A stretch of DNA of 64,000 nt from Clostridiales bacterium (GCA_018333995.1 JAGXSG010000021.1:7723-71722), one strand, 5' to 3'; positions 8,738 to 31,623 are shown, counted from the first letter of the stretch. Made by a program: numbers and translations. The notes: a model not told the origin generated them from the sequence alone.

Positions 8738-8739
8738 GC

Positions 8740-9522
8740 CTAGAGAGCTCCGTAGACGGTGCTAATGAAAGCACTGTGGTCTGCGACTCGCAGCCCGACT
8801 GCGTGACGCTTAGTGTGCGTCGCACAGGCCGCCAAGTGCGCAGCTAACAGGTTGCCTGGGTTGTTGCCAGACAGAACGAAGAGCAGGTGTTCTACACGGC
8901 AACCCTTGAAGCCATTGATGACGGCCGATTCGAGTCCGGCAGCAATATCGTGGCGGCCCTGCTCTCGCAACCTGTCTGCCACGAAGAGAACCGAGTGCCT
9001 AGTAGGACGACCGCGATCTCGCTCGAGGGCTGCGGCTGCTTCGTCGATGGCTGCAGTGGCAAGACTGGCACGGCTCTTGGACTCTCCTTTCAGGAAGACG
9101 AGAGCATCAAGACTCCCAGCTACACCGATGATGTCGTCGCCACGCAGTGCCATTTCGCGCCCATCCTTCCAGCGCAATCGACGCACTGGCACCGAGAAGC
9201 CAAGTGTCTGTTCCGCAAGCTCAGTTGCGAGGATCTCCCCCATGTCACCGGAGCGACTTCTCTTTCCGGTGGGAAGCTGCGCTCGAACCAGGGCTGCGGT
9301 CTGCGTTGCGCCATGTTCCTCAAGACGTCTCGCCAGAGTCTCAGGTGCGACGTAGTGCTCTCGAACCAGTTCACTCAAGTCGCCAAGAATTGCGTCGCGC
9401 GCAGCATCGCGTTCGACCAGAAGTACTAGGGAATGCTTCCCGGCCTCGGTGACAGACGAATCAAGCCATTTAGCGCAAACATGGTCTGTGCTCCATGTGA
9501 CCCCAAGTGCGGCGTCAGCCAT
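8740..9522 (-). CDS. hamA: DUF1837/HamA-like PD-(D/E)xK nuclease-fold protein
   Basis: 260 aa; motif string GDMGEILATELAE ... RGDDIIGV ... FLKGESKSR (D ... ExK); strong SD GGGGAGGG upstream; immediately precedes the helicase. Confidence 0.55.
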   Translation of the reverse strand: MADAALGVTWSTDHVCAKWLDSSVTEAGKHSLVLLVERDAARDAILGDLSELVREHYVAPETLARRLEEHGATQTAALVRAQLPTGKRSRSGDMGEILATELAEQTLGFSVPVRRLRWKDGREMALRGDDIIGVAGSLDALVFLKGESKSRASLATAAIDEAAAALERDRGRPTRHSVLFVADRLREQGRHDIAAGLESAVINGFKGCRVEHLLFVLSGNNPGNLLAAHLAACATHTKRHAVGLRVADHSAFISTVYGAL

Positions 9523-9750
9523 TCAACCCTCCCCAGTCTGTTCCGCTCAGTGGGCGCACTGCATGACCTTGGGCGGATGAGCAGCGGCCCACCCGCTTCG
9601 CTTCAGTCTAACGCTCGCGGCCGTCCGATCCGCTTCTCCTTCCCTGTCGCTGCTGGTAACAACGACAGTGTCGGCGGAGCGTCCTTTTCATGCCATCTTA
9701 TTAGTCCATTCGGGCCACACTACCCCTAGTACAGAATCGAGACGAGTTCG

Positions 9751-10884
9751 CTATGGGTCGCAGTCTCCAGAACCGTCGATGCCTGGATTCGGTGATGGTG
9801 CGCTACCATGCGCACCCCGCAGCTTTTGGAGAGTCTCCTGCCACACCTTGTTTGCCTCGATTTGGGCCTTGATGAGTTCGATTTGCTTCGCCGGCTTGGA
9901 CACGCCCCCGAGGTTGGCTAGACAAGTGACGATTTCGAAGCTGATCGGTGCGCGGCCAATCTCATGCTTGTGCGTTCGCGTGATGCGCTCCATCACACGA
10001 TGACTGCCTGCGATTCGCCTGAGGTCTCTCACCGTCACGACACTACGGCTGAACAGCGCCTTCAACAGAGGATCGATTTCCGACTGACCACAACGGATGC
10101 CGATCTTCTCCAGGACTCGCGGCAGGTTCTCCGCATTCAGCGGATCACTGTCCAGAATCTCCCTCTCCTCCTGGAACCTGGCCAGCTCATCAGCCAGGAA
10201 CTGAAAGTGCTCGTCAATGGCTTGGAGATGCGCCCCGATGATGTCGAATTGCTTCGAGACAGCGAACGACGTCTGCTTGTTTGGCTTGTAGCCCAGCTGA
10301 TGCTCGATTTCGCTCCACGTGTCCTCGGTCAGTGTGCGAACCTGAACCTCTACCCATGGCGGTTCGTAGAGACGTGACGCATCCGGCCGAACCCGAAGAC
10401 AATAGTGCACCGACGCGTAGCCGGAGTCCTTCTGTTCGCATTTCATCGAGAGCCCGATGCGCTGGGCAAGTTCCTCGTCCAGATACGCGACTGGAGGATC
10501 GTCTGTGGCCAGCTCGAGTTCCGGTGTTGACCGAATTGCCTCGTCAACGCGAGCCAAGTCCGTCAGGAAGTGCGTGACGATACGGAAGCCAAGCGTGTCG
10601 GTCATCGTTTCGATGCTCTCGGCTTTAAGTCCCAGCGGGAAGTCGGCGGGCTTTCGCGCAATCTTATCGATGACACTCTCGGGTCGCTTCACGCGATCCC
10701 TGAGACGATGGATTGGTGTCGGCAGGGGCTTCTCGGGCTCGACGCGGGACTCCCAGTAGACTGGATCCTGCCAAGGAAGGATGATCTGGAGCAGTTCGTC
10801 ACGTGCGGGGAGAAGCGTGAACTCAATGTACTCCGTGTACGCGTCTAGGAAGGCCCGTTGCTCGTCCGCTGAATGGTCTGGCAT
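9751..10884 (-). CDS. Stand-alone RelA/SpoT-synthetase-fold protein (small alarmone synthetase / toxSAS-like) with about 170-aa helical C-terminal domain
   Basis: Ordered motifs RVKRPESVIDKI, DTLGFRIV, GYASVHY, EVQVRTLTEDTWSEIEHQLGYK; no HD, TGS or ACT regions; flanked by 228 and 418 bp of non-coding DNA. Confidence 0.75.
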   Translation of the reverse strand: MPDHSADEQRAFLDAYTEYIEFTLLPARDELLQIILPWQDPVYWESRVEPEKPLPTPIHRLRDRVKRPESVIDKIARKPADFPLGLKAESIETMTDTLGFRIVTHFLTDLARVDEAIRSTPELELATDDPPVAYLDEELAQRIGLSMKCEQKDSGYASVHYCLRVRPDASRLYEPPWVEVQVRTLTEDTWSEIEHQLGYKPNKQTSFAVSKQFDIIGAHLQAIDEHFQFLADELARFQEEREILDSDPLNAENLPRVLEKIGIRCGQSEIDPLLKALFSRSVVTVRDLRRIAGSHRVMERITRTHKHEIGRAPISFEIVTCLANLGGVSKPAKQIELIKAQIEANKVWQETLQKLRGAHGSAPSPNPGIDGSGDCDP

Positions 10885-11302
10885 AGCAGCCTCCCTCCGC
10901 GCTTGTCCCGGCTTGACCGTCGGCAGATCATGCGTGTGCTATACGGCACTTGTCCCCCGGCGTCACCTGTCGCGCAACTACACCCCTATCGGAAGCCTAC
11001 AGTACGCCCGACCGCCGTCAAGTGCTGTCGGTTCAGGTCGTTGGGCGATGGGGATAACGCGGTTGCGCTTCAGCTGAAGCGCCGCCCCCGTTGCCTTGCC
11101 ACCCGTGCACACCCTACGGGCGGCGCTTTCTGCTGGAAGCGCTTCCATGAAAAGGACGCGGCTGCAAGTCGCGAGTCTGAGCTCCGTTCTTGATCGATCA
11201 TAGACCCCTCGGGCCAGCAGTCCTCATTCCTGACGGCTTCGGTGAGAGCCAAGCTTCCATTCGCGCTCTTTGAGGTTCGGCGCACGGGACCACTCCTCGC
11301 AT

Positions 11303-11776
11303 TCAGGCGATTCGCGTCAACTCTAGACTGCCTACTCTAGGTTCCCCTTCGCCCTGATGCGGGCCCAGCCAGTTGCCGACCATCGCACTACCATCCGCGT
11401 TCAAGTGAAGAAAGAACGCACCTGACATCCGGCTCCCGGGATCCATATCGGTCCAAGAGCCGGTGATGGTCGCTCCGCGCAGCACGCCCCGTACCTTGAG
11501 ACAGAACCCTCCAGGAGACGTGGGTTCGCAGATGCCGCGGACCCTGTTACCGACCTGCACTGTCCGCATCATTGCCCGCTCAGCGTGATTGCCTTCATCG
11601 TGATGAATCAGGTACTCGAAGTCCCAGTTCCCGCGCAGGTCCTGACCGGTGATGAATGCGCCAGTGTCAAAGCTCGACAGGACGGAATCGATGCGATCCT
11701 GAACTAGTGACGTCGCAATGACTCCGGCAAGCGCGCCCAGTACAAGGGTCACTACTGCCCCAAACACTTCCCACAC
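11303..11776 (-). CDS. Small N-terminally membrane-anchored protein, unknown function
   Basis: 157 aa; GTG start 6 nt after GGGGGAGG; TM helix WEVFGAVVTLVLGALAGVIATSLV followed by a Gly/Trp-rich, probably beta-rich soluble domain. Confidence 0.55.
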   Translation of the reverse strand: MWEVFGAVVTLVLGALAGVIATSLVQDRIDSVLSSFDTGAFITGQDLRGNWDFEYLIHHDEGNHAERAMMRTVQVGNRVRGICEPTSPGGFCLKVRGVLRGATITGSWTDMDPGSRMSGAFFLHLNADGSAMVGNWLGPHQGEGEPRVGSLELTRIA

Positions 11777-11889
11777 GTGAAACCTCCCCCGATCATGTGG
11801 CGAACGTCACTTGAGATGAGCGGCAACGCGAAGCGTCGTCCGCTCGATCTCAGGGCTAGCCGTCACCGTGTACAAGTTCACAGGCTCCC

Positions 11890-14800
11890 TTAGAGCGGCG
11901 TCTTCAGCTGTACGGTAGAGTCAAGCAGGCTCGGCGGAGTGCCTGACTCGGCGCACGCCTCCTCCTGATCAGCCGCGACGGCTGCGCCCAATGTCCTCGG
12001 CGGCACCACCAGCTCCCAGCACACGAGCTGAAGGTCGCGCTCGCTCGGTGGACGCGTCGCTGGCCGTGGCAGGGGCCTATCGAGGCCCTTCGCCTCGAGC
12101 CCCATCCACAGCCTCTCGAGCGCCCCTGACACCACGGCAGGATCAGCGTCAGCCACCTTCAGCGCCCTATACGCCTCCTGAACGCTGTCTTCACGCTTCA
12201 GCAGATCGCTCGGGTGAGGCTGGTCGCACCAGTCAAAGAGTGTGTCCGCGAGATTGCCCAGACGTTCTTGCACGTTGGGGTCCTGCAACCGCAAGCGGAT
12301 CTGGCGCACCAGTTCGCCGGGGTCCTGAGCGCTCATGCGACGCTGGTACTCCTGCCCCAGCTCCGCGATCGCGGTCTTCAACGGTTCGATCAGGTATTGG
12401 AAGGGGTTGTCCTCGGGGCCGAGCTCGGCACGTGCGTCTTCTGGATTGCAGGCGATTCGCGACGCAGCCTCGATCGCTGACGAGATCACCGGTGAAGCGT
12501 CTGCCGGATAGAACCGCCAAAACACCTCGCCGCCAAATTCGTCCGGCATCTTGAGCTGCACGAACACCCCAGGCTCGTCGCTCTCGCGAATGCTGTGAAT
12601 GCCGTCGGGGAGACTCCTGACGTCCTGGGTGCCGAGTGACTTCACGAGGTCGATATAGGCGCGAAGCTGGTCGAGCGCATCGTCGAACTCCGCGCGGCGC
12701 TCGCCTTCGAGGTAGACGGCCTCGGCCTCGTTGCCGCCCTGCTGGATGCGCATCATGTCGTCGAGCGCCTTCGCCTCAATGACCTCTCCAAGTACCGATG
12801 CATCGAGACCGAGCGTGGCATCGATCGCCTTCACTCGTGACGATAGCTTCTTGACGAGCTTGAGCAGATCCTCGAGGCCCTTCTCGGGCATGACGTTGTA
12901 GAAGTACACGCGCTTATGCGGCGAGAAGAGCCGGTCGATGCGTCCGGCCCGCTGGATCATACGCACCGGGTTCCAGTGAAGGTCGTAGTTGAGCAGGTAC
13001 TGGGCGTCTTGCAGGTTCTGGCCCTCACTTAGCACGTCGGTTGTGATGAGCGCGTCGATGCGCGCTTCTCTGAAAGGCGTGATCTCAACTGCAAGCTCCG
13101 GGTCATCGATGTCGCGGTCCTCGCGAAGCGCGGCAAGCGGCGCGAAGTGGGCGAGTACCTGGGCCCGCCGCCTCTTGTCGTCTGAGCCGGTGAGAACCGA
13201 CAGCCAGCGCTCTCCCGTGAGATTCGAGAGACACCGCACATCACCCTTGAGTCCGTCGGTCGGACCACCGAAGGCCTGGAACAGATGCGCCGCCGTGTCT
13301 TTGTAGTTCGTGAAGACGACCACCTTGACCGGCACTCCATTGTCGTCGAGCGCAGGAAGCCCGTCGATGACCGCGCGCAGAGCGGCGATCTTCGGATCCT
13401 TCGAGGGGTCCGCCGCCTCCAGTCCCTCGAGCGCGGCGAGGAGACCCTGCAGCGAATCTCGATCAGCGCGAACAGCCTCGGACAGCTTGCTGACGTCGCA
13501 TTGTGCGGTGTCGACCTGCTGCAGCGAATCGAGCAGCGCCTTCACGTCCTCGTCACCCCCGGCTGCCTCGAGCGCTTCGTCATCGAGTGCCCCGCCTAGC
13601 AGCACGCGGAGGCGATCCCGCTCCTTGGCGAAGAGCACCTTGCCCTGGTCGAGGAAGGACAGGAACAGGTCGAGATAATTGACTTGATTGCGGACGGTCG
13701 CCATGAGCGCCGCAACCGAGCTCTCCATGCGCTTCAGATAGATCGTTCGAATGATGCCGATATAGGCGTCGTTACGCTTCACAACGCTTTCGGTGTCTGT
13801 GCGCTTCATCCCCGGACGCTCGATGCCGTACGCCTCGAGGTTGTAGACGGCGAAGTTGAGCGACTCAATCGCCTCGATGACACGTGAGTAGACATCGCCG
13901 TAGAGCTCCTTGAGTCCGTAGGTGATGGCCTGCGGAATCTCGTGCTCAGGGAACACGAGCGGGCGCCCGTCGACTTCAAGTGGTTCTCCGGCCTCCTGGC
14001 GCTGACGGATGTCGTGGCGCGTGCGTCGTACGAGTGTGAGCAGCATCGTGTTGAGCAGCCCCGGTCCGCCGCCGGTCTTCTCGAGCGCGCGGAACTCGCC
14101 TTCGAGGTTGCCGACCGGCCCGCGCCCGGCGTACCAGCTGTTGTCGCCGCGCGTGATGAGCATGAGCTGGTGGTAGAGATCCCACAGCGTGTTGTTGATA
14201 GGGGTGGCGGTCAAGAGCAGCACACGCTTGTCCGGTTTGGCGCCGGCCCGAATGATCTCCATGAGCGCCCGGTAGCGCTTTGTGCCCGGATTGCGGAAGT
14301 TGTGGCTCTCATCCACGAGCACAATGTCGGCGTCCTGCAGCGCCCTGAGCTTGCGGCGTCTGCGCTCGCGTTCGAGGTTGTCCTCGATCTCGTCGATGTC
14401 GGCAAGCTGGGGCAGGTACTCCATGCTCACCGTCTCGCCAAAGATACCGTTGGCGTGCAGACGCTCGGACGACCAGTTGCCCTCGAGCTGGGCCGGACAC
14501 ACGACAAGCGCCCTCACGCGGTTGCTCTTACGCAGCGTGTACTCGCGAAGCACACCAAGGCCGATGTAGGTCTTGCCGAGACCCACTGAGTCGCAGACCA
14601 TAGCACCCCAGTGCCGCTCGAGCAGCTCGACGGCTCGCGAGACACCTTCCTGCTGGAAGAGCGCGAGTCGACCAGCCACCTCCTCATCGAGACCGATGCC
14701 GAGGAAGTTGCCGTATGCCGCGTGCAGAGCCTTGAGGAACACCTGCCACGGCGTGAAGCGCCGACCGAAAAGCACGCACTCTTCGAGCAGGCGGATGAAC

Positions 14801-15546
14801 TCGTCTTTGCAGTCCTGCGCTTCGTCCCACTTGCGGTCAAACCACGCCTCGAGCTCGTCGACCACCGGCGTCGGCCCGGTCTCCATCGTGATGAGGTTGG
14901 CCTCGATGTTGTCCTGCAGCCCACCCTTGGTGAGGTTGCTGCTGCCCACCGCACCGTAGGCGGCCTTCTCCTCGCGAAGGATGTACGCCTTCGCATGAAG
15001 GCGCTCGGACGTGTTCGCCGAGAGCACCTCACCTTCGGGTACGGTGCCAGTGGCCGGCCCGAGATAGCGGCAAACCTCGACCTCGGGGCGCGAGAGGAAG
15101 CGGACGAGTTCTTGGACCTTGTGCCACGCGGCGAGATCAAACTCCTTGCGCGCCTCGTAGCTCTCCTCGCCCTCATCCTCGAGGAGTTGCCTGCGCTGCT
15201 CGTGCGTCATCAGCACCCAAGGCAAGTCGCCCTCGAGGAACTCGAACCAGTCGATCGCCTCGAGCGGGCCGGCGTGCTCAGCGTCATCCGACTGGCCGGA
15301 GAGCAGCTCACCTGGGCCACGCCGCCGCATGAAGGGGCGCTCGCCGAGCAGGATACGCACCTGGTTCGCATCTTGGAGACCGGACTGGATCTCGCGGAAG
15401 CCATCCGGGGTGAAGTAGGCGGTGGCGATACGCACGCTGTCGGGCTGCACCTCGCTGAAGGCACGGGCGAGTTCGGCGAGCATCGTGCCGGTGATTTCAT
15501 CGTTGGCGATGAAGCGGCGGATATCAGTCATCTTCAGCCTCGGCAT
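11890..15546 (-). CDS. PLD-family (single HKD) nuclease domain fused to SNF2-family helicase
   Basis: HKD motif RLHAKAYIL...GSSNLTKGGL near the N-terminus; SNF2 motifs DSVGLGKTYIG, DESHNFRN, LLLTATPINN, TDVLSEGQNLQDA, NPVRMIQRAGRIDR; 1218 aa; start overlaps the methyltransferase stop by 23 nt. Confidence 0.8.
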   Translation of the reverse strand: MPRLKMTDIRRFIANDEITGTMLAELARAFSEVQPDSVRIATAYFTPDGFREIQSGLQDANQVRILLGERPFMRRRGPGELLSGQSDDAEHAGPLEAIDWFEFLEGDLPWVLMTHEQRRQLLEDEGEESYEARKEFDLAAWHKVQELVRFLSRPEVEVCRYLGPATGTVPEGEVLSANTSERLHAKAYILREEKAAYGAVGSSNLTKGGLQDNIEANLITMETGPTPVVDELEAWFDRKWDEAQDCKDEFIRLLEECVLFGRRFTPWQVFLKALHAAYGNFLGIGLDEEVAGRLALFQQEGVSRAVELLERHWGAMVCDSVGLGKTYIGLGVLREYTLRKSNRVRALVVCPAQLEGNWSSERLHANGIFGETVSMEYLPQLADIDEIEDNLERERRRRKLRALQDADIVLVDESHNFRNPGTKRYRALMEIIRAGAKPDKRVLLLTATPINNTLWDLYHQLMLITRGDNSWYAGRGPVGNLEGEFRALEKTGGGPGLLNTMLLTLVRRTRHDIRQRQEAGEPLEVDGRPLVFPEHEIPQAITYGLKELYGDVYSRVIEAIESLNFAVYNLEAYGIERPGMKRTDTESVVKRNDAYIGIIRTIYLKRMESSVAALMATVRNQVNYLDLFLSFLDQGKVLFAKERDRLRVLLGGALDDEALEAAGGDEDVKALLDSLQQVDTAQCDVSKLSEAVRADRDSLQGLLAALEGLEAADPSKDPKIAALRAVIDGLPALDDNGVPVKVVVFTNYKDTAAHLFQAFGGPTDGLKGDVRCLSNLTGERWLSVLTGSDDKRRRAQVLAHFAPLAALREDRDIDDPELAVEITPFREARIDALITTDVLSEGQNLQDAQYLLNYDLHWNPVRMIQRAGRIDRLFSPHKRVYFYNVMPEKGLEDLLKLVKKLSSRVKAIDATLGLDASVLGEVIEAKALDDMMRIQQGGNEAEAVYLEGERRAEFDDALDQLRAYIDLVKSLGTQDVRSLPDGIHSIRESDEPGVFVQLKMPDEFGGEVFWRFYPADASPVISSAIEAASRIACNPEDARAELGPEDNPFQYLIEPLKTAIAELGQEYQRRMSAQDPGELVRQIRLRLQDPNVQERLGNLADTLFDWCDQPHPSDLLKREDSVQEAYRALKVADADPAVVSGALERLWMGLEAKGLDRPLPRPATRPPSERDLQLVCWELVVPPRTLGAAVAADQEEACAESGTPPSLLDSTVQLKTPL

Positions 15547-18500
15547 TCGTGAGGTAGGCTCGCTGCGCCCTCCAGTCAGCCAGCAGCGCAGCCTCTTCGG
15601 CCGTCACCCCGTAGACATCATCTACCAAGTCATTGATGGCATCGTCTTGCGAACCCGGGGACTCCGCGCTAGCGTCTACCAGATTCTCGAGAAGCGCCGC
15701 TGTCTCCGGCCTTGGCTCAACAATCGGGAGAGGGACCATGGGGGACTTCTCCCATTCCAAGAAACCGCCCTGCTTCTCGCTCAATCGCGTTGCCGCCGCC
15801 AGCACGAACATCAGGGACGAGTTCATGACCGCCACTCCCCACTTAGGGAGCCCGGTTGCGATGTAGCACTTCTGGTTCGTGTAGAACCCGTCCTCGTCCC
15901 AAAGGAACCGGGGCTCGGGCGTGATGGTTGCCCAGACAACCTTCGGCTGCTCGAATTCCCTGTAATACGTGCACGAGCGCAGCTCCCACCACCAGCGGCC
16001 CTGATCGGCACGAGGGCGCAGTCGGTCCTCGTAGGCAGTCATGTGCCGGTGAATCGCTGGAAAGGAGTCCGCAAAGATCGCTCGCGCGTCCTTCTCGGTC
16101 GTAGCGTACTTCCAGGGGTGCGCGCAGTCGGCATCGCCCGAGTTCTGGATCGCGATGAGGTACAGGCCCGCCCATTCGGGCTTCCAACGCTTGATGTCTC
16201 GTCCACGAAGCCACGGCTTGATGAGCTCGATGCTCTCGGGGTCGGCCGCGATGAGCGCGGCGCACTTGGCCTGGTCGATGACGAACGCCTCGTTGAAGCC
16301 GGTCAGGACGCCCCGATACATCCGCCCCTGGACGAACTCGCCGAGCGGCGTACCAATCGCCATGATGCGGTCGAACAGGCGCACGAGCTGCGGGTCCTCC
16401 AAGACCCAGCCGTCTTTGCGAAGCAGCGCCTGCGGGAAGCCGTCGATGCGGTTGCGCTCGAGCAGCGAGTCGAGGTTCTCGAGCTGCTCACGCACACTCG
16501 AGACGTTCTCGGATGCTCCTGCCTCGGCAAGCGCCTGTCGCACCGGATGCGTGAGGCGAGCGACCGAGACCGTGTCAGCGGGATCCGGGGCGGTCTTGCG
16601 GCCGATGAGCACGGATGGATACGCGATTGCCGCGAACACCGCAAGGTCGCCGAAGTCAATGGCATGCTCGATCTGTAGGTCGGCTGGCAGGAGCGCCCTG
16701 AGTCCCTCTCCGTAGGCCGCCCGGTGGAACTTGTTGCTCGTGATAAAGGCGAGCCGACCGTCATCCTTGAGAATCTGCAAGGCGCGGGCGAAGAAGTAGA
16801 CGAGCAGATCGGCCGTACCCGTGTGCACCTCGGCGAAGCTCAACGCATACGTCTCTTGATCGATGGCGGCGAGCTTCTCCTGGCGTACGTACGGCGGGTT
16901 GGCGATGACGATGTCGAACCCGCCCTGCTCGAAGACCTCGGAGAACTCGACCGGCCACAGGAACGGCTTCTTGTAGGGCGCATCAGGAGACAGGCCGTCG
17001 AGAACCTTGCGAAGGTGCTCATGGCGCTCGACGAACGCGGCAGCCGCCTTCTCCTCACGCTTGAGGTCACGCGCGCTTGCGCCCATGCGCCTGAGCTTGT
17101 CCAGCCGGGTCTTCATGTCAGTGAGCGACCGCTCCACCCCGGCAAGCTGGTCGGAAATCTGGCGCGCCACCAGCTCGAGCTGCTTTCCCTTGATCTCGCG
17201 CCGCAGCTCACGGGCCCTGACCGAGTCGCGAAGCGTCGCGTACTCGGCACGAAGCGCCTCGAGCTCCCGCTCGGCCTCGGCAAGATCATCGAAGAGCATC
17301 GCGTCCTGGTGTCCGCTGCGCGGCAGCGTTTCGCGCAGGCGAGTATCCCCGATGCGGTCAACAAGACTGTCGCCCGCCTCGAAGCGGAAGTCGAGGTTCG
17401 GCAGCGGGACGGGACGCTCGGCATCGACCACCATCGAGAGCCACAGCCTGAGCTGGCAGATCTCAACCGCCTCCGGATTAATGTCGACCCCGTAGAGGCA
17501 GTTGGTGATGACTGCCTCCTTCCACTCGGCGACCTTTTGGCCACCAATCTGTACCTTCACGTCGGCGCTCTGCTCTATGCCAATGAGCAGTTGCACGATC
17601 TCCTGCAGCATGCCGACCGGGAACGCACCCGAACCGACGGCCGGGTCACAGACTGTGACCGACAGAAGCGCCTCTTCAAGCCGCTTGCGCTCCTTGGGCG
17701 TGAGGTACACGTCGGTGGCGGCCGGGTCGATTGCCTCGAGCCGCAACCGCGCGAGCGTCTCCCGGCTGACCTCGGTCCGCTCGACGAGATAGCCGTCGAG
17801 TGCCTCGCGGCACATGAAGCGGACGATCTCTCGCGGCGTGTAGAAGGTGCCCGTCTTCTTGCGGTCCTCGTTGAGGTTCTCGAACACCTTGCCCAGGAGC
17901 TCGGGATCCGGGTCGACCGAGAGGTCGTCGGGCGTGGATTCCTGCGTGGTGAAGCGGTAGCTCGACAGCAATCCGAGAAGCGTGGGCGCACGGCCGTCGT
18001 GTGCACGAGGGTCGAAGAGCTCGTTCGGGACAACGATATCGATGTGCTCGCGACCGTCGCCGTAGAGCCGGTCTTCGACGGCAGTCGGAACGAAGAGTCC
18101 GCCGTTGAGGTACGGGATGTCTCCGAGTGCTTGCGCCTTCTCGGTACGCCGCGCCGGTTCGACAGCGAGCGTGTTGAAGAACAGTGGCAGCAGCGCGTCG
18201 TTGAAGTAGTTGCGGTGGTCAGAGGCGGTGCGTCCGTAGAGATTGACGAGGTACGAGGCGTCGGCGTCGAGCCAACCCTTCGCCTGGATGAACCACAGGA
18301 AGAGCACGCGTCCGAGGTTGCGGGTCACGAAGCGTCGCAGCTCGGCTTGCGTGGCCTCGTCGTCTTCGGCCGGGTCAAGCAGCGGATGCCCGGGGTTCGA
18401 CTCCGCGAGTGCGGCGACGAAGCGGTCGCGGAGAAGGCGGAACTCCCTGTAGAAAGCGTCGGTGACCCGCTCGACGCTGAAAGCGTCGTTCCACTTGCGG

Positions 18501-19000
18501 GTGATTGCCGCGGTACCCATGCCGGGAGAGAGCTCGAGACCCTCCAGCAGCTCGAGGTGGTGCCGGTTCGGGTTCGAGCGGGCGACGATCGCGCGAATCG
18601 TTCCGAGCTGACCGTTCGTGCGCTGACGTGGCAGAACGAGTTCGATGTCGTCGACACCTTCGCCGGTGAGCGCGATAAGGATGTTGCGATCGCCGGCCGG
18701 TGCGAGTTCAACGAGCGCCTTGGCGATGCGGCGACGCGCGCGCTCACGAGCGGACGGGCGGTCGCCCCATTTGGGGATCGTAGCGACCCACAGGGCCGCC
18801 CTGCCGACCTGCTCAAGAGCGCCGACACGATGGAGGCTGGTGACCACGTCGGCGAGGCGAGTGCCGATCTCGGTGCTTGTGTCGGCGGCGAAGTCGAGTG
18901 GGGATGCCACGGGCGCCAGGCCAAGGGCTTCGGACACACCGGCCCAAGCCCCTCTTGCCGATGCCGCGAGGGCGCTTCTCAGAATGGCTCGACCGGTCAA
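15524..19000 (-). CDS. Large gamma-class N6-adenine DNA methyltransferase, Eco57I/PglX (type IIG/BREX-like) family with TaqI-C-like specificity domain
   Basis: GTFYTPREIVRFM, motif I VCDPAVGSGAF, motif IV IANPPYV, C-terminal GVLTGFNEAFVID; 1158 aa; no recognisable nuclease motif in this protein. Confidence 0.8.
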   Translation of the reverse strand: MTGRAILRSALAASARGAWAGVSEALGLAPVASPLDFAADTSTEIGTRLADVVTSLHRVGALEQVGRAALWVATIPKWGDRPSARERARRRIAKALVELAPAGDRNILIALTGEGVDDIELVLPRQRTNGQLGTIRAIVARSNPNRHHLELLEGLELSPGMGTAAITRKWNDAFSVERVTDAFYREFRLLRDRFVAALAESNPGHPLLDPAEDDEATQAELRRFVTRNLGRVLFLWFIQAKGWLDADASYLVNLYGRTASDHRNYFNDALLPLFFNTLAVEPARRTEKAQALGDIPYLNGGLFVPTAVEDRLYGDGREHIDIVVPNELFDPRAHDGRAPTLLGLLSSYRFTTQESTPDDLSVDPDPELLGKVFENLNEDRKKTGTFYTPREIVRFMCREALDGYLVERTEVSRETLARLRLEAIDPAATDVYLTPKERKRLEEALLSVTVCDPAVGSGAFPVGMLQEIVQLLIGIEQSADVKVQIGGQKVAEWKEAVITNCLYGVDINPEAVEICQLRLWLSMVVDAERPVPLPNLDFRFEAGDSLVDRIGDTRLRETLPRSGHQDAMLFDDLAEAERELEALRAEYATLRDSVRARELRREIKGKQLELVARQISDQLAGVERSLTDMKTRLDKLRRMGASARDLKREEKAAAAFVERHEHLRKVLDGLSPDAPYKKPFLWPVEFSEVFEQGGFDIVIANPPYVRQEKLAAIDQETYALSFAEVHTGTADLLVYFFARALQILKDDGRLAFITSNKFHRAAYGEGLRALLPADLQIEHAIDFGDLAVFAAIAYPSVLIGRKTAPDPADTVSVARLTHPVRQALAEAGASENVSSVREQLENLDSLLERNRIDGFPQALLRKDGWVLEDPQLVRLFDRIMAIGTPLGEFVQGRMYRGVLTGFNEAFVIDQAKCAALIAADPESIELIKPWLRGRDIKRWKPEWAGLYLIAIQNSGDADCAHPWKYATTEKDARAIFADSFPAIHRHMTAYEDRLRPRADQGRWWWELRSCTYYREFEQPKVVWATITPEPRFLWDEDGFYTNQKCYIATGLPKWGVAVMNSSLMFVLAAATRLSEKQGGFLEWEKSPMVPLPIVEPRPETAALLENLVDASAESPGSQDDAINDLVDDVYGVTAEEAALLADWRAQRAYLTNAEAEDD

Positions 19001-19223
19001 CAGGCTCTCCCTCTAAGCACACAACTCGGACTGGACCTCTGTCCATGATACTTGCACCGCCCATGCTCATGCTTACAGACTGCATCGCGGCAGCGTAAAC
19101 GGCCGACATTGAACCACTGCGCCGACGCTCCGCTCCCAACCCGAACCTGCGACACGGGGTGTGCCGTCTGTGTGGCAGCAAGGGCAGCCGTGCTACTCGA
19201 ACACCTTCTCACGCGCATCAACC

Positions 19224-19593
19224 TCAACTGTTGGACGGAGGCGTTGGGTAGCTCCTGAATGGTCTTGGAGCCATCACGCAGTGTGCGACCCATGGTAACG
19301 ATATGCAGCTGTCTCTTTGGGGTGTCGTAGAAATCACTAGGTACTTCGCGCTCGCAACCACGGTCAAATCAGGGAGAGAAACGTTCTTCTTGTTCTTGAA
19401 GAACAACTCGTAGAAGCGATCCACCGAGATCAGACAGCTGCTTGTCAATCTCATCCCACCAGTCGTTACAGAGTCGGTTCGCCAAGAAGCAAGCATCGAC
19501 GACGGAATAGTTTCTTCCGTCATCCGGCATGCAGTTGATCTTACTGGTGCGAGCCATGAGACCCCTGTGCATGGCTATCGAGCGGTTCCGCAC
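19224..19593 (-). pseudogene. Low-GC, frameshifted remnant of an unidentified gene
   Basis: Three short minus-strand ORFs in different frames read through one another (19593-19369, 19523-19224, 19293-18997); local GC about 43-50% versus about 65% background. Confidence 0.35.
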
Positions 19594-19603
19594 CGCGAAG
19601 AAC

Positions 19604-20899
19604 TCAGGCGACGCCCAGCCGCTCGAACAGGACGCTCAAGCTCTCCTGCTCAGGAACGAAGACGACAGCGACATCGAAACTCTGCCCTTCCGCACTCAAC
19701 GTGGTCCGCACAAGCGCCGCCCACGGCGCTCCCCCGGTCACCTTGGCGGTCGCCTCTTGGAGGATTGTTCCAGCAAAGTCGAGCTCGAACACCGCGTGCT
19801 CAAGGCGAGCGTCTAAACCAGCCAGCTGCGAAATAGCGCCTACATACTTCTCGGCGAGTATGGTACCCGCTTTCACGACGAGCGCCTCCTCAGCCGCGCC
19901 AAACAATCGCGTTGCGCCGGGAGCTCTGCCTTCTGCGATGTCACAGAGCTCGAGCAAGGTATCGCACGTCGCGATGATGAGCACGGCTCCGTGCATGTCG
20001 CCAGACACGCGAGCGCACGTAGCGCCTACGAGCGTCTTCGCGATCCCAAACGCGAACGATACCTCACCGGCGAGAACGGTCTGCAGCACTGGCGGGGACA
20101 ACGAGAAGCGTCGTCCAAGAATCTCCGAGAGCGCCGTTGCGGCATGTCCCGCGCCGATGTTCCCTACCTCACGAAGCGCGTCGATCTGTAACGGCGTGAG
20201 CCTCTCTGGTGTGCTGGCACTCTCCGAGACGAGCAACTGCTCCACGCTGAGTTCCGAGACCTCGTCGATCTCTCCGATCGAGTCGATTATGTCTTGCAGC
20301 GACCGGTCCGTCCGGATCGTCACGGAAAAGGCTCGCTCGAAGCGCTCTTCTTCAAGACGCGTCAGTGTCGGCTCGCTTCCCGTAATCTCGCCGAGTTCCG
20401 ACAAGCGCTTGATGACAACGTGTGCGCGGAGCGCCTTGAGCACGCACGACTCCTCCAGGGTGACATCAACGCGGACGATGGCGTGAGCGATGTCGCGCGC
20501 TGCGAGTCCGGCGGCAGACGGCATCGCGTGGTACGCGCCGTACCGGTCAGGATCGAGATCGGGCCACGGCATATCCGGAGGCGTCTGCGAGTTCATATCG
20601 GCTCCGATGAGGGGCCTCATCGCTGAAGTGGCTTCTCCCAGAGCCCCGATGAGTGCCGGGGTTACCACCGCGTCGCCCGTGTTCACCGAGTGCGCGAGCC
20701 GCTCCATGCGGGCCGCAAGCTCAGCCGATCGATCGAAGCCCATCGCTGAGCACATCCCCTTGAGTGTATGCGCCGCGCGAAAGATCTCTTCGGCCGTCAT
20801 CCGGTCATCCGGATCGTGGGCGAGCACCGCAAGCCTGCTCTCAAGCACGCCGAGGTACTCCTCGCTCTCCTCGGCGAACAGATCACGATAGGCGCTCAT
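19604..20899 (-). CDS. HPt (CheA P1-like) domain fused to CheC-like phosphatase domain
   Basis: HPt motif FRAAHTLKGMCSAMGF; CheC site DALREVGNIGAGHAATALSEILGRRFSLSPP (D-x3-E-x2-N-x22-P); no kinase or CheW domains; ATG at 20899 sits 1 nt after the cheB stop, so the longer ORF-track start at 21064 was rejected. Confidence 0.7.
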   Translation of the reverse strand: MSAYRDLFAEESEEYLGVLESRLAVLAHDPDDRMTAEEIFRAAHTLKGMCSAMGFDRSAELAARMERLAHSVNTGDAVVTPALIGALGEATSAMRPLIGADMNSQTPPDMPWPDLDPDRYGAYHAMPSAAGLAARDIAHAIVRVDVTLEESCVLKALRAHVVIKRLSELGEITGSEPTLTRLEEERFERAFSVTIRTDRSLQDIIDSIGEIDEVSELSVEQLLVSESASTPERLTPLQIDALREVGNIGAGHAATALSEILGRRFSLSPPVLQTVLAGEVSFAFGIAKTLVGATCARVSGDMHGAVLIIATCDTLLELCDIAEGRAPGATRLFGAAEEALVVKAGTILAEKYVGAISQLAGLDARLEHAVFELDFAGTILQEATAKVTGGAPWAALVRTTLSAEGQSFDVAVVFVPEQESLSVLFERLGVA

Positions 20900-20900
20900 C

Positions 20901-22055
20901 TCATTCACGCGTCGCCTCCTTCGCACGCACAGTTCTCCGGATCTCAGCCGGTATGGCATCGATGCTGATGGTCCGGTTAGAGGCGCGTTCCTTGATCGCA
21001 GAACCCGGCATCCCCCACACGATACTTGTCTTCTCATCTTGCACGATAGGGGCACCGCCCGCATCTCGGATCGCGCGCAGCCCCAGCGCGCCGTCCGATC
21101 CCATGCCAGTGAGCACTACGCCTACCGCCTGGGAACCGAACCGCTCGGCCACGCTGTAGAACAGCAGGTCGGCGGCTGGCCGGACGCCGTGCAACGGCGG
21201 CGTGAACGCATCGAACGCGATCCGGGCATCGGGCGGTTGACCCACTACAACCATGTGAACTCCATGCGGTGCGAGATATCCGCGCCCGCACTCCAGCGCC
21301 ATGTCCTCCTGCGCCTCTACGACATCGATACCGCCGGCGCGTGAGAGCCGCCTCGTCAGCGACGCCGAGAAACCGTGGGGCAAGTGCTGCACGACAAGTA
21401 CCGCCGCGGCCAGCGAAGATTCGAGCCCCCTGAAGACCTTCTCCAATGCTGGGGGACCCCCCGTCGAGGCCGCAATCGCCACCACTATCTCGCAGCCGGA
21501 TTCGATACTACCCGGCTTAGATGCCGCCCTTGACACGCGTGGCTCGGCGGCGCGTGCCGCAATCGCGGCCATCGTCCGCGCGATGGCGTTCTTGTCGATC
21601 GCCACCACGTCGGGCGAGACACGATACGCTGTCTTGATCGTTTTGATGAGCTGCTCTGACAGTTCCCCCACCGACATCGTGAACCGGCCCTTCGGTTTGG
21701 GCAGGAAGTCTACGGCACCAAGCGCGAGCGCCTGGTACGTGGTATCGGTGTCGTCCGCGGAAGAGAGCATGACCACTCGCGCATCACTGACCGAACGGAT
21801 ATGCGGCAGAGCTTCAAGTCCGCTGAGCTCGGGCATCTCGATGTCGAGCGTCACCACATCCGGATCAAACGCTCGCGCCATCTCAACGGCCTGCACGCCA
21901 TTGCGGGCGACACCAACGATCTCGATACTCGGGTCAAGCGATAGCGCCTGATGGAGCATCTGCCGCACAAGCGCCGAATCGTCGACGATGAGGACCCTGA
22001 TCGTCGCCCGCATGTGGTCTGGACGCGGCACTGCTATCGCTGGGCGCCAAGACAC
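20901..22055 (-). CDS. cheB: CheB-type response regulator / protein-glutamate methylesterase
   Basis: Receiver IRVLIVDDSALVRQML...TLDIEMP; esterase triad context AASTGGP, VVQHLPHGF, GMGSDG; the start may instead be the Met at 22013. Confidence 0.8.
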   Translation of the reverse strand: MSWRPAIAVPRPDHMRATIRVLIVDDSALVRQMLHQALSLDPSIEIVGVARNGVQAVEMARAFDPDVVTLDIEMPELSGLEALPHIRSVSDARVVMLSSADDTDTTYQALALGAVDFLPKPKGRFTMSVGELSEQLIKTIKTAYRVSPDVVAIDKNAIARTMAAIAARAAEPRVSRAASKPGSIESGCEIVVAIAASTGGPPALEKVFRGLESSLAAAVLVVQHLPHGFSASLTRRLSRAGGIDVVEAQEDMALECGRGYLAPHGVHMVVVGQPPDARIAFDAFTPPLHGVRPAADLLFYSVAERFGSQAVGVVLTGMGSDGALGLRAIRDAGGAPIVQDEKTSIVWGMPGSAIKERASNRTISIDAIPAEIRRTVRAKEATRE

Positions 22056-28129: not shown

Positions 28130-28235
28130 CGGCCTCTTCCGTTCTTGGTGCCTCGGCGGGTCATGCCGGCGACCAGACCCGAGAACCTTCCGGCCCAGTA
28201 TACCCGTCAAAGCCACGCACCGCACCGGTCAGGAC

Positions 28236-31514: not shown

Positions 31515-31623
31515 GCGACACACCCCTTTAAGTAACGCCGGTGCGGTGCCGGCCGCACAGTACGAGCACATGGAGCACCTAACATGCACACATCAGCAAA
31601 CGACATGCCCCGCATCCGGCCAA

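What the first reader, a model, noticed from the sequence alone, without database searches (positions are those of the whole stretch)
11890..19000. Two-gene restriction-like module: PglX/Eco57I-type adenine methylase coupled to a PLD-nuclease::SNF2 translocase
- **Seen:** the 1158-aa methyltransferase (NPPY, FYTPREIV, TaqI-C-like TRD) has no nuclease motif. Its stop overlaps by 23 nt the start of a 1218-aa protein that fuses a single-HKD PLD nuclease domain to a complete SNF2 ATPase.
- **Established:** BREX and DISARM use similar methylases, and DISARM class 1 has SNF2 (DrmD) and PLD (DrmC) proteins. The defining partners (PglZ/BrxC/BrxL, or DrmA/DrmB-DUF1998) are absent here.
- **Inference:** functionally this resembles a split Type ISP enzyme (methylase/TRD + translocase + nuclease) with PLD replacing the Mrr-type nuclease. 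That would make it a minimal translocating R-M-like system that standard classifiers may leave unassigned.
Basis: partly seen in the sequence, partly recalled or inferred. Interest (0 to 1): 0.7.

Follow-up and report, generated by a model that had tools for sequence, protein, structure and literature searches.

The report
Two-gene methylase plus PLD-SNF2 restriction-like cassette
A DNA adenine methylase that lacks its own nuclease is paired with a motor protein carrying a PLD nuclease; the pair moves between genomes as a unit, sits in an anti-phage defence island here, and most likely acts as an unnamed, untested ATP-driven restriction-modification system.

Summary
Window 15524-19000(-) encodes a 1158-aa gamma-class N6-adenine methylase (Eco57I, N6_Mtase and TaqI_C domains; NPPY). 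Window 11890-15546(-) encodes a fusion of a single-HKD PLD domain and a complete SNF2 ATPase. The conserved start is probably ATG 15531, which gives an 8-nt overlap rather than 23 nt.

The pair is a discrete mobile cassette. DNA homology to a relative at 82% identity covers only window 11996-19014. In 41 of 48 related loci with enough flank, an Eco57I-type methylase lies beside the PLD-SNF2 gene. The reverse check gave 4 of 4. No DrmA/DrmB, PglZ, BrxC or DUF499 recurs nearby. Catalytic motifs of all three activities are invariant. The target-recognition domain is mosaic. The two proteins co-vary (r=0.89).

Type IIG profiles align with the methylase only from about residue 165. Where those enzymes carry a nuclease, this protein has a confidently folded domain with no structural match.

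Best reading: an R-M-like defence system, with the nuclease and motor supplied in trans.

- In gene layout it resembles Type III.
- In logic it resembles Type ISP.
- Its effector is closest to the HKD-Snf2 protein of MANTIS/Gao_RL.

It is a member of none of these. The pairing was noted once in passing (Milman 2023) but is unnamed and untested. Verdict: new variant of a known kind; interest 0.6.

The parts
15524..19000 (-). Gene 1: 1158-aa gamma-class N6-adenine DNA methyltransferase (Eco57I/MmeI/PglX-like chassis). TTG start with a GAGGGAG Shine-Dalgarno sequence.
   Evidence: Homologue P0122 begins MPDRAILRSAL, aligned to the window's (L)TGRAILRSAL.
18506..19000 (-). Methylase N-terminal domain (aa 1-165). 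Its fold is unassigned. It occupies the position where Type IIG enzymes carry their PD-(D/E)xK nuclease. Proposed docking or adaptor domain for the PLD-SNF2 partner (inference).
   Evidence: AF2 pLDDT 90.9. No PDB fold match. No Pfam or PADLOC hit before about aa 165. Invariant R58, R85, R89, R90, E120, P124, R136, H148. A profile of it finds only 78 representatives in 1.84 billion proteins. A related domain is fused to sigma-70 next to PLD-SNF2 in cyanobacteria.
17981..18505 (-). Helical spacer (aa about 166-340) with the LNGGLF motif, shared with MmeI and Type IIG enzymes.
   Evidence: DUF7814 3.2e-06 and MmeI_hel 0.029. Type IIG PADLOC models align from aa 165-212 on. All-helical in the model.
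16511..17893 (-). Methyltransferase catalytic domain (aa about 370-830). Contains FYTPREIV, motif I DPAVGSGAF (aa 452-460), motif IV NPPY (aa 701-704; window 16889-16900) and a variable coiled-coil insert at aa about 550-680.
   Evidence: Eco57I 500-789 and N6_Mtase 692-803. Motif residues are invariant in 30 homologues. The insert is the least conserved stretch.
15722..16216 (-). TaqI_C-like target-recognition domain (aa 929-1093). It is mosaic between close relatives.
   Evidence: TaqI_C 4.7e-05. P0125 is 74-100% identical over aa 51-950 but only 22-50% over aa 951-1158. DNA homology to L090 stops before this region.
11890..15546 (-). Gene 2: PLD-nuclease::SNF2 ATPase fusion. It is 1218 aa from the first ATG. 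The conserved start is ATG 15531, giving 1213 aa and an 8-nt overlap with the stop of gene 1.
14827..15441 (-). Single-HKD phospholipase-D-type nuclease domain (ORF aa 36-240). Catalytic His184/Lys186 in ORF numbering (His179/Lys181 in P0001 numbering), then GSSNLT.
   Evidence: PLDc_2 36-240, 3.7e-10. SauUSI PLD 7clg, 6e-4. H, K and GSSN are invariant in 16 homologues.
12667..14679 (-). SNF2 ATPase core (ORF aa about 290-960) with motifs I GLGKT, II DESH, III TATP, V SEGQN and VI QRAGRIDR, plus a long insert between the two lobes.
   Evidence: SNF2-rel_dom, Helicase_C and ResIII. DrmD-like stretches 592-956. PDB hits 1z63 and RapA. Motifs invariant.
11893..12666 (-). Conserved C-terminal region of the PLD-SNF2 protein (aa about 961-1218). 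Function unknown. No modified-base reader is recognisable.
   Evidence: No Pfam or PADLOC hit. AF2 pLDDT 72.9 and no PDB fold match. Many invariant residues up to W1172. The last 35 or so residues are not conserved, and DNA homology to L089 ends at 11996.

Best explanation
This is a two-component, ATP-dependent restriction-modification-like defence cassette.

Gene 1 is built like a Type IIG/IIL enzyme: helical spacer, gamma-class adenine methylase, single TaqI_C-type recognition domain. Its cis nuclease is replaced by a family-specific N-terminal domain.

Proposed roles of gene 1 (inferred from the family):
- It recognises a short asymmetric sequence.
- It methylates one strand of that sequence on host DNA.
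- It acts as the specificity subunit for restriction.

Proposed roles of gene 2:
- It supplies the effector in trans. A SNF2 dsDNA translocase carries one HKD half-site, so two copies must come together to form one PLD active site. This is established for Nuc, BfiI, SauUSI and MtsD.
- At unmodified sites the methylase recruits or licenses the PLD-SNF2 protein, perhaps through its N-terminal domain.
- ATP-driven translocation then brings two motors, or a motor and a second site-bound complex, together, and the DNA is cut.
- As in Type III, Type ISP and MANTIS, such a two-site requirement would tolerate hemimethylated host DNA after replication.

Shown: domain content, intact catalytic motifs, cassette boundaries, linkage, co-variation, a mosaic recognition domain, and defence-island context.

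Inferred: the methylation motif, protein-protein contact, translocation, cleavage and protection.
For: **Cassette**
- blastn against the 82%-identical relative L089 aligns window 11996-19014 only. Flanks are unrelated. In L089 and L090 the pair sits in entirely different neighbourhoods.

**Linkage**
- 41 of 48 PLD-SNF2 loci with at least 5 kb of upstream flank carry an Eco57I-type methylase. In the 47 loci where one was found, it is on the same strand, 43 upstream and 4 downstream.
- 4 of 4 methylase homologues chosen independently have PLD-SNF2 1.4-2.5 kb downstream.
- No other family recurs in more than 6 loci. DUF1998, PglZ and DUF499 are not among the recurrent families of 139 same-strand neighbours.

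**Coupling**
- The stop and start overlap by 8 nt, and this is conserved.
- Pairwise identities of the two proteins correlate: r=0.89, Mantel 0 of 2000 permutations, 37 pairs.

**All activities under selection**
- NPPY and motif I; HxK...GSSN; SNF2 motifs I, II, III and VI. All are invariant.

**R-M hallmark**
- The recognition domain is swapped between otherwise 80-100% identical methylases.
- Milman et al. 2023 list two such methylases with an adjacent PLD+SNF CDS as programmed-inversion targets.

**Nuclease in trans**
- The methylase N-terminus is not a recognisable nuclease.

**Context**
- Hachiman lies 2.4 kb away.
- Relatives sit beside GmrSD, CBASS, ThsB-TIR, PIN and recombinases, and on plasmids.

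**Precedent**
- The MANTIS HKD-helicase MtsD is a dimer with one PLD site and is required for restriction.
- DrmMI makes a one-strand mark at ACACAG.
Against: - There is no experimental datum for this family: no methylation motif, no cleavage, no protection.
- MtsD could not be made to cut DNA in vitro, and MANNTIS-type methylation there needs an AAA+ loader (MtsA) that this pair lacks, so a two-gene system may not be sufficient.
- Class 1 DISARM and BREX, which use similar methylases, do not behave like classical restriction. Examples are the lack of autoimmunity without the methylase and no scaling with site number for phages.
- 7 of 48 loci have no methylase nearby.
- Some cyanobacterial copies lie among housekeeping genes next to a sigma-factor fusion.
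- Correlated divergence could partly reflect shared host phylogeny.
- The role of the N-terminal domain as a docking module is pure inference.
Confidence: 0.6

Rival explanations
1. It is a methylation-guided exclusion system of the BREX/DISARM kind rather than a cutter. The methylase marks self. The PLD-SNF2 protein blocks replication or strips proteins from unmodified DNA. Alternatively, it works only with partners encoded elsewhere, such as a YprA/DrmAB-type helicase or a host factor, with little or no site-directed double-strand cleavage.
For: - SNF2 + PglX-like methylase pairs are sub-modules of larger systems: DrmD+DrmMI in class 1 DISARM, ArmA+ArmB in ARMADA II, BrxHII+PglXI in BREX-3.
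- The PADLOC DrmMI model hits the methylase at 6e-54, and DrmD models hit the motor at 1e-34.
- DrmC (PLD) is dispensable in DISARM.
- MtsD showed no in vitro cleavage.
Against: - The HKD residues are invariant across the family.
- No partner recurs within 10 kb in more than 80 loci.
- The cassette moves alone.
- NCBIfam DrmD and PglX scores are far below their cut-offs.
Confidence: 0.17
2. The two genes are functionally independent neighbours. One is an orphan or Type IIG-like methylase. The other is a SauUSI-like Type IV enzyme, a PLD-helicase that attacks foreign modified DNA.
For: - The PLD domain's best hits are SauUSI (7clg, 6e-4) and PADLOC Type IV mREase models (7e-07).
- Type IV genes (DUF262/GmrSD) often lie beside or inside the pair.
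Against: - Linkage is strict in both directions, with an overlapping stop and start, co-transfer and co-variation.
- The helicase is SNF2, not the SauUSI type.
- No modified-base reader is detectable in the C-terminal region.
- A modification-dependent nuclease fixed next to an active methylase would risk self-attack.
Confidence: 0.07
3. The function is not defence. It could be an epigenetic or transcription-associated remodelling module (RapA-like SNF2 acting with RNA polymerase) or a DNA-repair function, with the methylase as a regulator.
For: - RapA is among the nearest solved structures and NCBIfam hits.
- In six cyanobacterial loci the partner directly upstream of PLD-SNF2 is a sigma-70 factor carrying the methylase-type N-terminal domain. 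In some, housekeeping genes are the neighbours and no methylase is present.
Against: - The recognition domain is mosaic, the distribution is patchy and mobile, and the genes occur on plasmids.
- Neighbours are consistently defence genes or recombinases.
- A conserved nuclease active site is hard to reconcile with remodelling.
Confidence: 0.06

Closest known systems
MANTIS / Gao_RL / Type-2 DUF499-centred BREX-related system (MtsA-D)
   Same: - The effector architecture is the same: N-terminal single-HKD PLD nuclease followed by a Swi2/Snf2-type ATPase.
- The best PADLOC hit of the window protein is the 'HKD+Snf2' model PDLC01075 (1.8e-45).
- An N6-adenine methylase provides both specificity and self-marking, and the system is methylation-based.
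   Different: - There is no DUF499 AAA+ loader (MtsA) and no DUF3780-type MtsB, either in the window or recurrently in relatives.
- MtsC is a group-alpha DPPY enzyme with a central recognition domain. Here the methylase is group gamma (NPPY) with a C-terminal TaqI_C-type domain.
- The match to the HKD+Snf2 model is only partial: best stretch aa 195-471 against model positions 127-375 of 948.
Type III restriction-modification (Mod + Res)
   Same: - Two genes, methylase first, overlapping the motor-nuclease gene.
- The methylase is expected to be the specificity subunit for both reactions.
- One-strand modification of an asymmetric site and a need for communication between two sites are expected here by analogy.
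   Different: - Mod is beta-class with an internal recognition domain. Here it is gamma-class with a C-terminal one.
- Res is a non-SNF2 SF2 ATPase with a C-terminal PD-(D/E)xK nuclease. Here it is an SNF2 ATPase with an N-terminal PLD.
Type ISP enzymes (LlaGI, LlaBIII)
   Same: The set of activities is the same: nuclease, dsDNA translocase, gamma-methylase and recognition domain. The expected logic is also the same: one-strand marking and cleavage on motor collision. This rests on established knowledge of the family.
   Different: - Type ISP is a single polypeptide with an Mrr-type nuclease and a Type I-like motor.
- Here there are two polypeptides, a PLD nuclease and an SNF2 motor.
Type IIG/IIL enzymes (Eco57I, MmeI, Cj0031)
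   Same: - The methylase shares the helical spacer, the gamma catalytic domain and the TaqI_C/MmeI-type recognition domain.
- PADLOC Type IIG models score up to 5.5e-103.
   Different: - The N-terminal nuclease domain is missing. It is replaced by an unrelated domain of about 165 aa.
- A separate motor-nuclease is encoded next door.
Class 1 DISARM (DrmD + DrmMI + DrmABC), ARMADA II (ArmA + ArmB) and BREX-3 (BrxHII + PglXI)
   Same: - An SNF2 helicase is paired with a PglX/DrmMI-like adenine methylase.
- A PLD nuclease (DrmC) is also part of DISARM.
   Different: - There is no DrmA/DrmB (YprA + DUF1998), PglZ or BrxC.
- Here the PLD is fused to the SNF2.
- NCBIfam scores: DrmD 141.6 against a cut-off of 610; PglX 65.7 against 400.
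SauUSI (Type IV), and CglI/NgoAVII (PLD R-protein + SF2 H-protein)
   Same: - A PLD nuclease is driven by an SF2 ATPase.
- A single HKD per chain requires dimerisation.
- SauUSI is the nearest solved PLD domain (7clg).
   Different: - SauUSI targets modified DNA through its own reader domain and has no cognate methylase.
- CglI recognises DNA through a B3-like domain on the nuclease subunit and uses a DEAD-Z1 motor with a C5 methylase (listing).

Membership tests
DISARM class 1 | DrmA (YprA-like helicase) and DrmB (DUF1998) encoded in the locus | tested here: not met
   Pfam and PADLOC on all large ORFs of window 1-33225 found none. DUF1998 is not among the recurrent families of 139 neighbours in 80 related loci.
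DISARM class 1 | SNF2 protein reaches the DrmD equivalog threshold | tested here: not met
   NF038317 scores 141.6 bits against a cut-off of 610. NF038318 scores 76.2 against 950.
DISARM class 1 | DrmMI-type N6-adenine methylase | tested here: inconclusive
   The PADLOC DrmMI model PDLC02643 hits at 6.2e-54 but covers only aa 377-825. Type IIG models score higher.
BREX (types 1-6) | PglZ phosphatase and BrxC/PglY ATPase in the locus | tested here: not met
   None in the window flanks. Neither is recurrent in related loci.
BREX (types 1-6) | Methylase reaches a PglX equivalog threshold | tested here: not met
   BREX-2 PglX 65.7 bits against 400. BREX-1 58.8 against 500. BREX-6 49.2 against 900.
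MANTIS / Gao_RL / Type-2 BR | DUF499 AAA+ ATPase (MtsA) and the small DUF3780-type protein (MtsB) | tested here: not met
   No such Pfam hit in the window. The 157-aa downstream ORF and the 98- and 99-aa upstream ORFs have no family hit and no homologue in 90 loci. Not recurrent in relatives.
MANTIS / Gao_RL / Type-2 BR | Group-alpha (DPPY) methylase with a central recognition domain (MtsC) | tested here: not met
   The window methylase has motif I before NPPY and a C-terminal TaqI_C domain, so it is group gamma. MtsC is described.
MANTIS / Gao_RL / Type-2 BR | Effector with an N-terminal HKD nuclease fused to a Swi2/Snf2 ATPase | tested here: met
   PLDc_2 aa 36-240, then the SNF2 core. PADLOC 'HKD+Snf2' model 1.8e-45. 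Architecture as described.
Type ISP restriction-modification | All activities in a single polypeptide with an Mrr/PD-(D/E)xK nuclease | tested here: not met
   Two ORFs. The nuclease is PLD.
Type IIG/IIL restriction-modification | N-terminal PD-(D/E)xK nuclease in the methylase polypeptide | tested here: not met
   Type IIG profiles align only from about aa 165. There is no nuclease Pfam hit. The model has pLDDT 90.9 with no PDB fold match. The conserved D104...E120-L-V lacks the lysine.
Type IIG/IIL restriction-modification | Helical spacer + gamma methylase + C-terminal recognition domain | tested here: met
   DUF7814/MmeI_hel, Eco57I, MmeI_Mtase and TaqI_C. PADLOC Type IIG model 5.5e-103.
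Type III restriction-modification | mod-res gene pair with the methylase upstream | tested here: met
   Gene order and the 8-nt overlap. The methylase is upstream in 43 of 47 related loci.
Type III restriction-modification | Beta-class Mod, and Res with a C-terminal PD-(D/E)xK nuclease | tested here: not met
   Gamma-class methylase. PLD at the N-terminus of an SNF2 protein. The ResIII Pfam hit is only 1.2e-05.
SauUSI-type Type IV enzymes | Own reader domain for modified bases, and no cognate methylase | tested here: not met
   The C-terminal region has no family or fold match. An active-looking methylase is strictly linked.
Any restriction-modification system (functional definition) | Sequence-specific methylation that protects against the cognate nuclease | not testable with these tools
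   This needs methylome sequencing and restriction assays.

The most novel reading that the evidence does not exclude
The pair may be a distinct class of ATP-dependent restriction-modification built on an adaptor principle. A family-specific N-terminal domain of about 165 aa on the methylase would recruit a free-standing PLD-SNF2 nuclease-translocase.

The same kind of domain has been grafted onto a complete sigma-70 factor in cyanobacteria, directly upstream of PLD-SNF2. In some loci no methylase is present and the context is housekeeping genes. The motor-nuclease would therefore be re-targetable by swapping the adaptor-bearing partner: from sequence-specific defence to an RNA-polymerase-linked function.
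Probability: 0.2. Interest if true: 0.8.

Novelty: new variant of a known kind. Interest (0 to 1): 0.6.

Why it matters
If the two genes suffice for defence, this would be the smallest known methylation-based system that uses an SNF2-PLD effector. It would be a natural minimal counterpart to four-gene MANTIS and to DISARM, ARMADA and BREX-3, where SNF2-methylase pairs are embedded in larger machines.

- It would show how a Type IIG-like methylase can hand DNA to a nuclease in trans without an AAA+ loader.
- It would give a tractable system for a step that the MANTIS work could not reconstitute: how an HKD-Snf2 protein is licensed to cut.

There is also a practical consequence. Current classifiers probably mislabel the methylase as a single-protein Type IIG enzyme and ignore the partner. 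At least 588 loci in species-representative genomes may therefore be mis-annotated.

Tried and rejected
- **Fold search, methylase N-terminal 335 aa.** No PDB match at E<0.01. Neither a nuclease nor any other function could be assigned.
- **Fold search, PLD-SNF2 C-terminal 294 aa.** The model has pLDDT 72.9 and gave no match.
- **Profile-profile comparison.** The window-subfamily N-terminal profile against one cyanobacterial sigma fusion was weak (E=0.13). The homology rests instead on the broader C1 profile (E 8e-12 to 3e-34).
- **Small flanking ORFs** (98, 99 and 157 aa) as third components. They have no family hits and no homologue in 90 loci, so I rejected them as parts of the module.
- **Programmed-inversion architecture.** No long inverted repeat or spare recognition-domain copy lies in window 9500-20000.
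- **Promoter and terminator scan.** Nothing above chance.
- **Phage genomes.** Only partial generic SNF2 matches, so the module is not phage-borne.
- **Decayed DISARM, BREX or MANTIS locus.** Rejected, because the same two-gene unit recurs without those partners in about 40 loci and transfers alone.
- **Literature.** Five searches found no named or tested system with this composition. The only mention is a passing table entry in Milman et al. 2023.
- **Not resolved.** I could not confirm which published system the PADLOC model name 'C3a139' belongs to. I cite only its description, 'HKD+Snf2'.

Full report
**1. The observation**

Window 15524-19000(-) is a 1158-aa ORF and 11890-15546(-) a 1218-aa ORF.

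The first protein hits these families:
- Eco57I, 3.6e-38
- N6_Mtase, 3.1e-10
- MmeI_Mtase, 2.7e-09
- TaqI_C, 4.7e-05

It contains FYTPREIV, DPAVGSGAF and NPPY. Its TTG start is preceded by GAGGGAG and aligns with the Met start of its closest homologues.

The second protein hits PLDc_2, SNF2-rel_dom and Helicase_C. Run alone, its N-terminal 290 aa match PLDc_2 over aa 36-240. It has one HKD motif and all SNF2 motifs.

The 23-nt overlap applies to the longest ORF. The first ATG is missing in the closest relative. The conserved start is ATG 15531, with GAGG upstream. This gives an 8-nt ATGACTGA overlap and the 1213-aa product of the public gene call.

**2. Surroundings**

The pair lies in a defence island between a GGDEF gene (3675-5168) and a CheA/CheB cluster (19604-22055). 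The other genes of the island are:
- a complete Hachiman system: HamB at 5300-8737 (PADLOC E=0) and HamA at 8740-9522 (1.7e-85)
- a RelA/SpoT-like gene at 9751-10884
- an unassignable 157-aa ORF

No DrmA, DrmB, PglZ, BrxC or DUF499 is present. Closest homologues come from Anaerosomatales and other actinobacterial MAGs.

**3. Is it a unit?**

*Cassette boundaries.* blastn of the window against L089 (82% nucleotide identity) aligns only window 11996-19014. That runs from 14 nt upstream of the methylase start to about 100 nt before the second gene's stop. Flanks are unrelated. In L089 the pair sits among serine recombinases, GmrSD and RadC. In L090 it sits beside a pknB/ftsW cluster.

*Linkage from the PLD-SNF2 side.* A genome-wide scan returned at least 588 related loci, of which 80 were kept. 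Clustering their ORFs gave a single recurrent partner, an Eco57I/TaqI_C methylase. It comes in a form of about 1150 aa (26 loci), a form of about 1500 aa (18 loci) and fragments at contig ends.
- Of 48 loci with at least 5 kb upstream, 41 carry it.
- In the 47 loci where one was found, it is on the same strand, upstream in 43 and downstream in 4.

*Linkage from the methylase side.* Four methylase homologues chosen independently of the first list all have PLD-SNF2 1.4-2.5 kb downstream.

*Other partners.* A Pfam scan of 139 same-strand neighbours of at least 330 aa showed only scattered defence and mobility families: AAA_15/AAA_21, recombinases, IrrE-HTH, Mrr, NACHT. No DUF1998, PglZ or DUF499 appeared among the recurrent families.

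*Co-variation.* Pairwise identities of the two proteins across 37 loci correlate (Pearson 0.89; 0 of 2000 permutations reach it). Shared host ancestry may contribute to this.

*Embedded genes.* In many relatives one to four unrelated small genes lie between the two genes: PIN, HTH-IrrE, DUF262, DUF4238.

*Distribution.* The pair occurs on plasmids, for example Deinococcus radiophilus pRadio5 and a Nostoc conjugative plasmid. It is essentially absent from phage genomes.

**4. Anatomy**

*Methylase.*
- Motif I and NPPY are invariant in 30 homologues.
- The recognition domain is mosaic. P0125 is 74-100% identical to the window protein over aa 51-950 but 22-50% over aa 951-1158. More distant homologues are unusually similar at aa 1001-1100. 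DNA homology to L090 stops before this domain.
- PADLOC Type IIG models align only from about aa 165, at the MmeI_hel-like spacer.
- The first 165 aa fold confidently (model of aa 1-335, pLDDT 90.9) but match nothing in the PDB and hit no nuclease family. The conserved D104...E120-L-V lacks the lysine of a PD-ExK site.
- A profile of this domain finds only 78 representatives among 1.84 billion proteins. They are methylases of about 1150-1360 aa or fragments.
- The chassis is therefore that of a Type IIG/IIL enzyme whose nuclease has been replaced.

*PLD-SNF2.*
- These are invariant in 16 homologues: H179/K181 and GSSN (P0001 numbering; add 5 for ORF numbering), GLGKT, DESH, TATP and QRxGRIDR.
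- The motor is a genuine SNF2. The nearest solved chains are Sulfolobus Rad54-like 1z63 and RapA.
- The PLD domain is nearest to SauUSI.
- The conserved C-terminal 260 or so aa have no family or fold match.

**5. Mechanism**

*Shown:* a mobile two-gene cassette with three intact catalytic centres, a diversifying recognition domain, translational coupling and a defence context.

*Inferred from family knowledge:* gamma-class enzymes with one TaqI_C/MmeI-type domain (MmeI, PglX, DrmMI, Type ISP) recognise asymmetric sites and modify one strand. DrmMI marks ACACAG on one strand.

*Established:* a single HKD needs a second copy to form an active site. This holds for Nuc, BfiI and SauUSI. The MtsD dimer has one PLD site.

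I therefore propose the following. The methylase marks self and acts as the specificity subunit. It recruits or licenses PLD-SNF2 at unmodified sites, possibly through its N-terminal domain. ATP-driven translocation brings two HKD domains, or two site-bound complexes, together, and the DNA is cut. A two-site requirement would protect hemimethylated daughter DNA, as in Type III, Type ISP and MANTIS. Confidence 0.6.

*Rivals:*
- a non-cleaving BREX/DISARM-like exclusion, or dependence on unlinked partners (0.17)
- two independent neighbours, including a SauUSI-like Type IV enzyme (0.07)
- a non-defence, RNA-polymerase-linked role suggested by the cyanobacterial sigma fusions (0.06)

**6. Comparison with known systems**

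- *Closest effector.* This is the HKD-Snf2 protein of Gao_RL / MANTIS / Type-2 BR (PADLOC 'HKD+Snf2' 1.8e-45; architecture). That system also requires a DUF499 AAA+ loader and a small DUF3780-type protein, and it uses a group-alpha DPPY methylase. None of these is met here.
- *DISARM class 1, ARMADA II and BREX-3.* They also pair an SNF2 protein with a PglX-like methylase. Their defining partners are absent, and NCBIfam equivalog scores are far below cut-off (DrmD 141.6 against 610; PglX 65.7 against 400).
- *Type III.* The gene layout matches, but all three domains belong to other families.
- *Type ISP.* The activity set matches, but in one polypeptide with an Mrr nuclease.
- *Type IIG.* The methylase chassis matches, but without the nuclease.

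The module is thus a member of none. It works most like a Type III/ISP enzyme assembled from a Type IIG-derived methylase and a MANTIS-like effector.

**7. Novelty**

Five literature searches found no named or tested system of this composition. The only mention is in Milman et al. 2023 (PMC9881135). They list two 'Type II RM' CDSs (Cj0031-like) with an adjacent CDS encoding PLD and SNF domains among programmed-inversion targets. This independently fits phase-variable specificity.

I rate it a new variant of a known kind, with interest 0.6. The parts and the logic are familiar. The minimal two-gene composition, the replaced nuclease domain and the breadth of distribution (Actinomycetota, Chloroflexota, Cyanobacteriota, Planctomycetota, Nitrospirota, archaea) are not described.

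Classifiers would probably call the methylase a Type IIG enzyme (5.5e-103) and miss the partner.

**8. Limits**

- Nothing here shows methylation, cleavage, interaction or protection.
- ORF calls in the related loci are my own greedy calls. The counts of 'embedded ORFs' are therefore approximate.
- Neighbour families present in a single locus are not visible in the summary scans.
- The rest of this genome was not available to exclude unlinked partners.

Noticed in passing
window 5300-9522 (-): A complete Hachiman system lies immediately downstream in the same orientation: HamB (1145 aa, PADLOC PDLC00174 E=0) and HamA (260 aa, 1.7e-85). This makes 5300-19000 a defence island between a GGDEF gene and a chemotaxis cluster.
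   Followed up: partly
window 9751-10884 (-) and 11303-11776 (-): A 377-aa RelA/SpoT-like nucleotidyltransferase (Pfam 3.6e-18; weak PADLOC PDC-S33 hit) and a 157-aa ORF with a hydrophobic N-terminus lie between Hachiman and the pair. The 157-aa ORF has no family hit and no homologue in 90 related loci. They may be a separate candidate defence gene or genes.
   Followed up: partly
L013:7166-8728, L014, L018, L021:8151-9668, L027, L029 (cyanobacteria): A 470-621-aa protein lies directly upstream of PLD-SNF2. It fuses a domain homologous to the methylase N-terminal domain (E 8e-12 to 3e-34) to a complete sigma-70 factor (regions 1.2, 2, 3 and 4). In L013, L018 and L021 no Eco57I methylase lies within 10 kb. 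In L013 and L021 the neighbours checked are housekeeping genes (IleRS, PEP carboxylase).
   Followed up: partly
L003, L005-L007, L083, L085-L088, L079, L082, L084 (pRadio5): Unrelated small genes are often embedded between the methylase and PLD-SNF2: PIN, HTH+IrrE/M78 peptidase, DUF262/GmrSD, DUF4238, DUF1828. This resembles the embedded genes described for Hma, BREX and Type I loci.
   Followed up: partly
L086:8516-9004, L087:8408-9004, L088:8501-9004: In the Dehalococcoidia relatives a 160-200-aa gene with a weak HTH_17 hit overlaps the methylase start by 4 nt. It may be a controller protein. It is absent from the window.
   Followed up: no
L025, L028, L032, L036, L039, L040, L055, L057 and others (cluster C2): A second methylase form of about 1400-1800 aa (Eco57I + TaqI_C with a long N-terminal extension) partners a distinct PLD-SNF2 sub-branch. 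SNF2 identity is 49% within a methylase class and 36% between classes.
   Followed up: partly
L091 (Nostoc sp. C052 plasmid pC052_A, 213986-218502): The methylase of the pair appears to be split by an IS630 transposase on a conjugative plasmid, while PLD-SNF2 remains intact next to DUF262 and EVE-domain genes. If so, this would be a natural test of whether the nuclease is tolerated without its methylase. I did not check that the upstream fragment is homologous to the methylase N-terminus.
   Followed up: no
window 24662-33225 (-): Large multihaem cytochrome (paired CXXCH, MtrC-like), CWB2 cell-wall-binding and NHL-repeat proteins. They suggest an extracellular-electron-transfer surface apparatus in this Gram-positive-type organism.
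   Followed up: no
window 16724-19048 (+): A 774-aa ORF lies antisense to the methylase gene. With 64% G+C and no evidence for it, it is most likely a shadow ORF.
   Followed up: no
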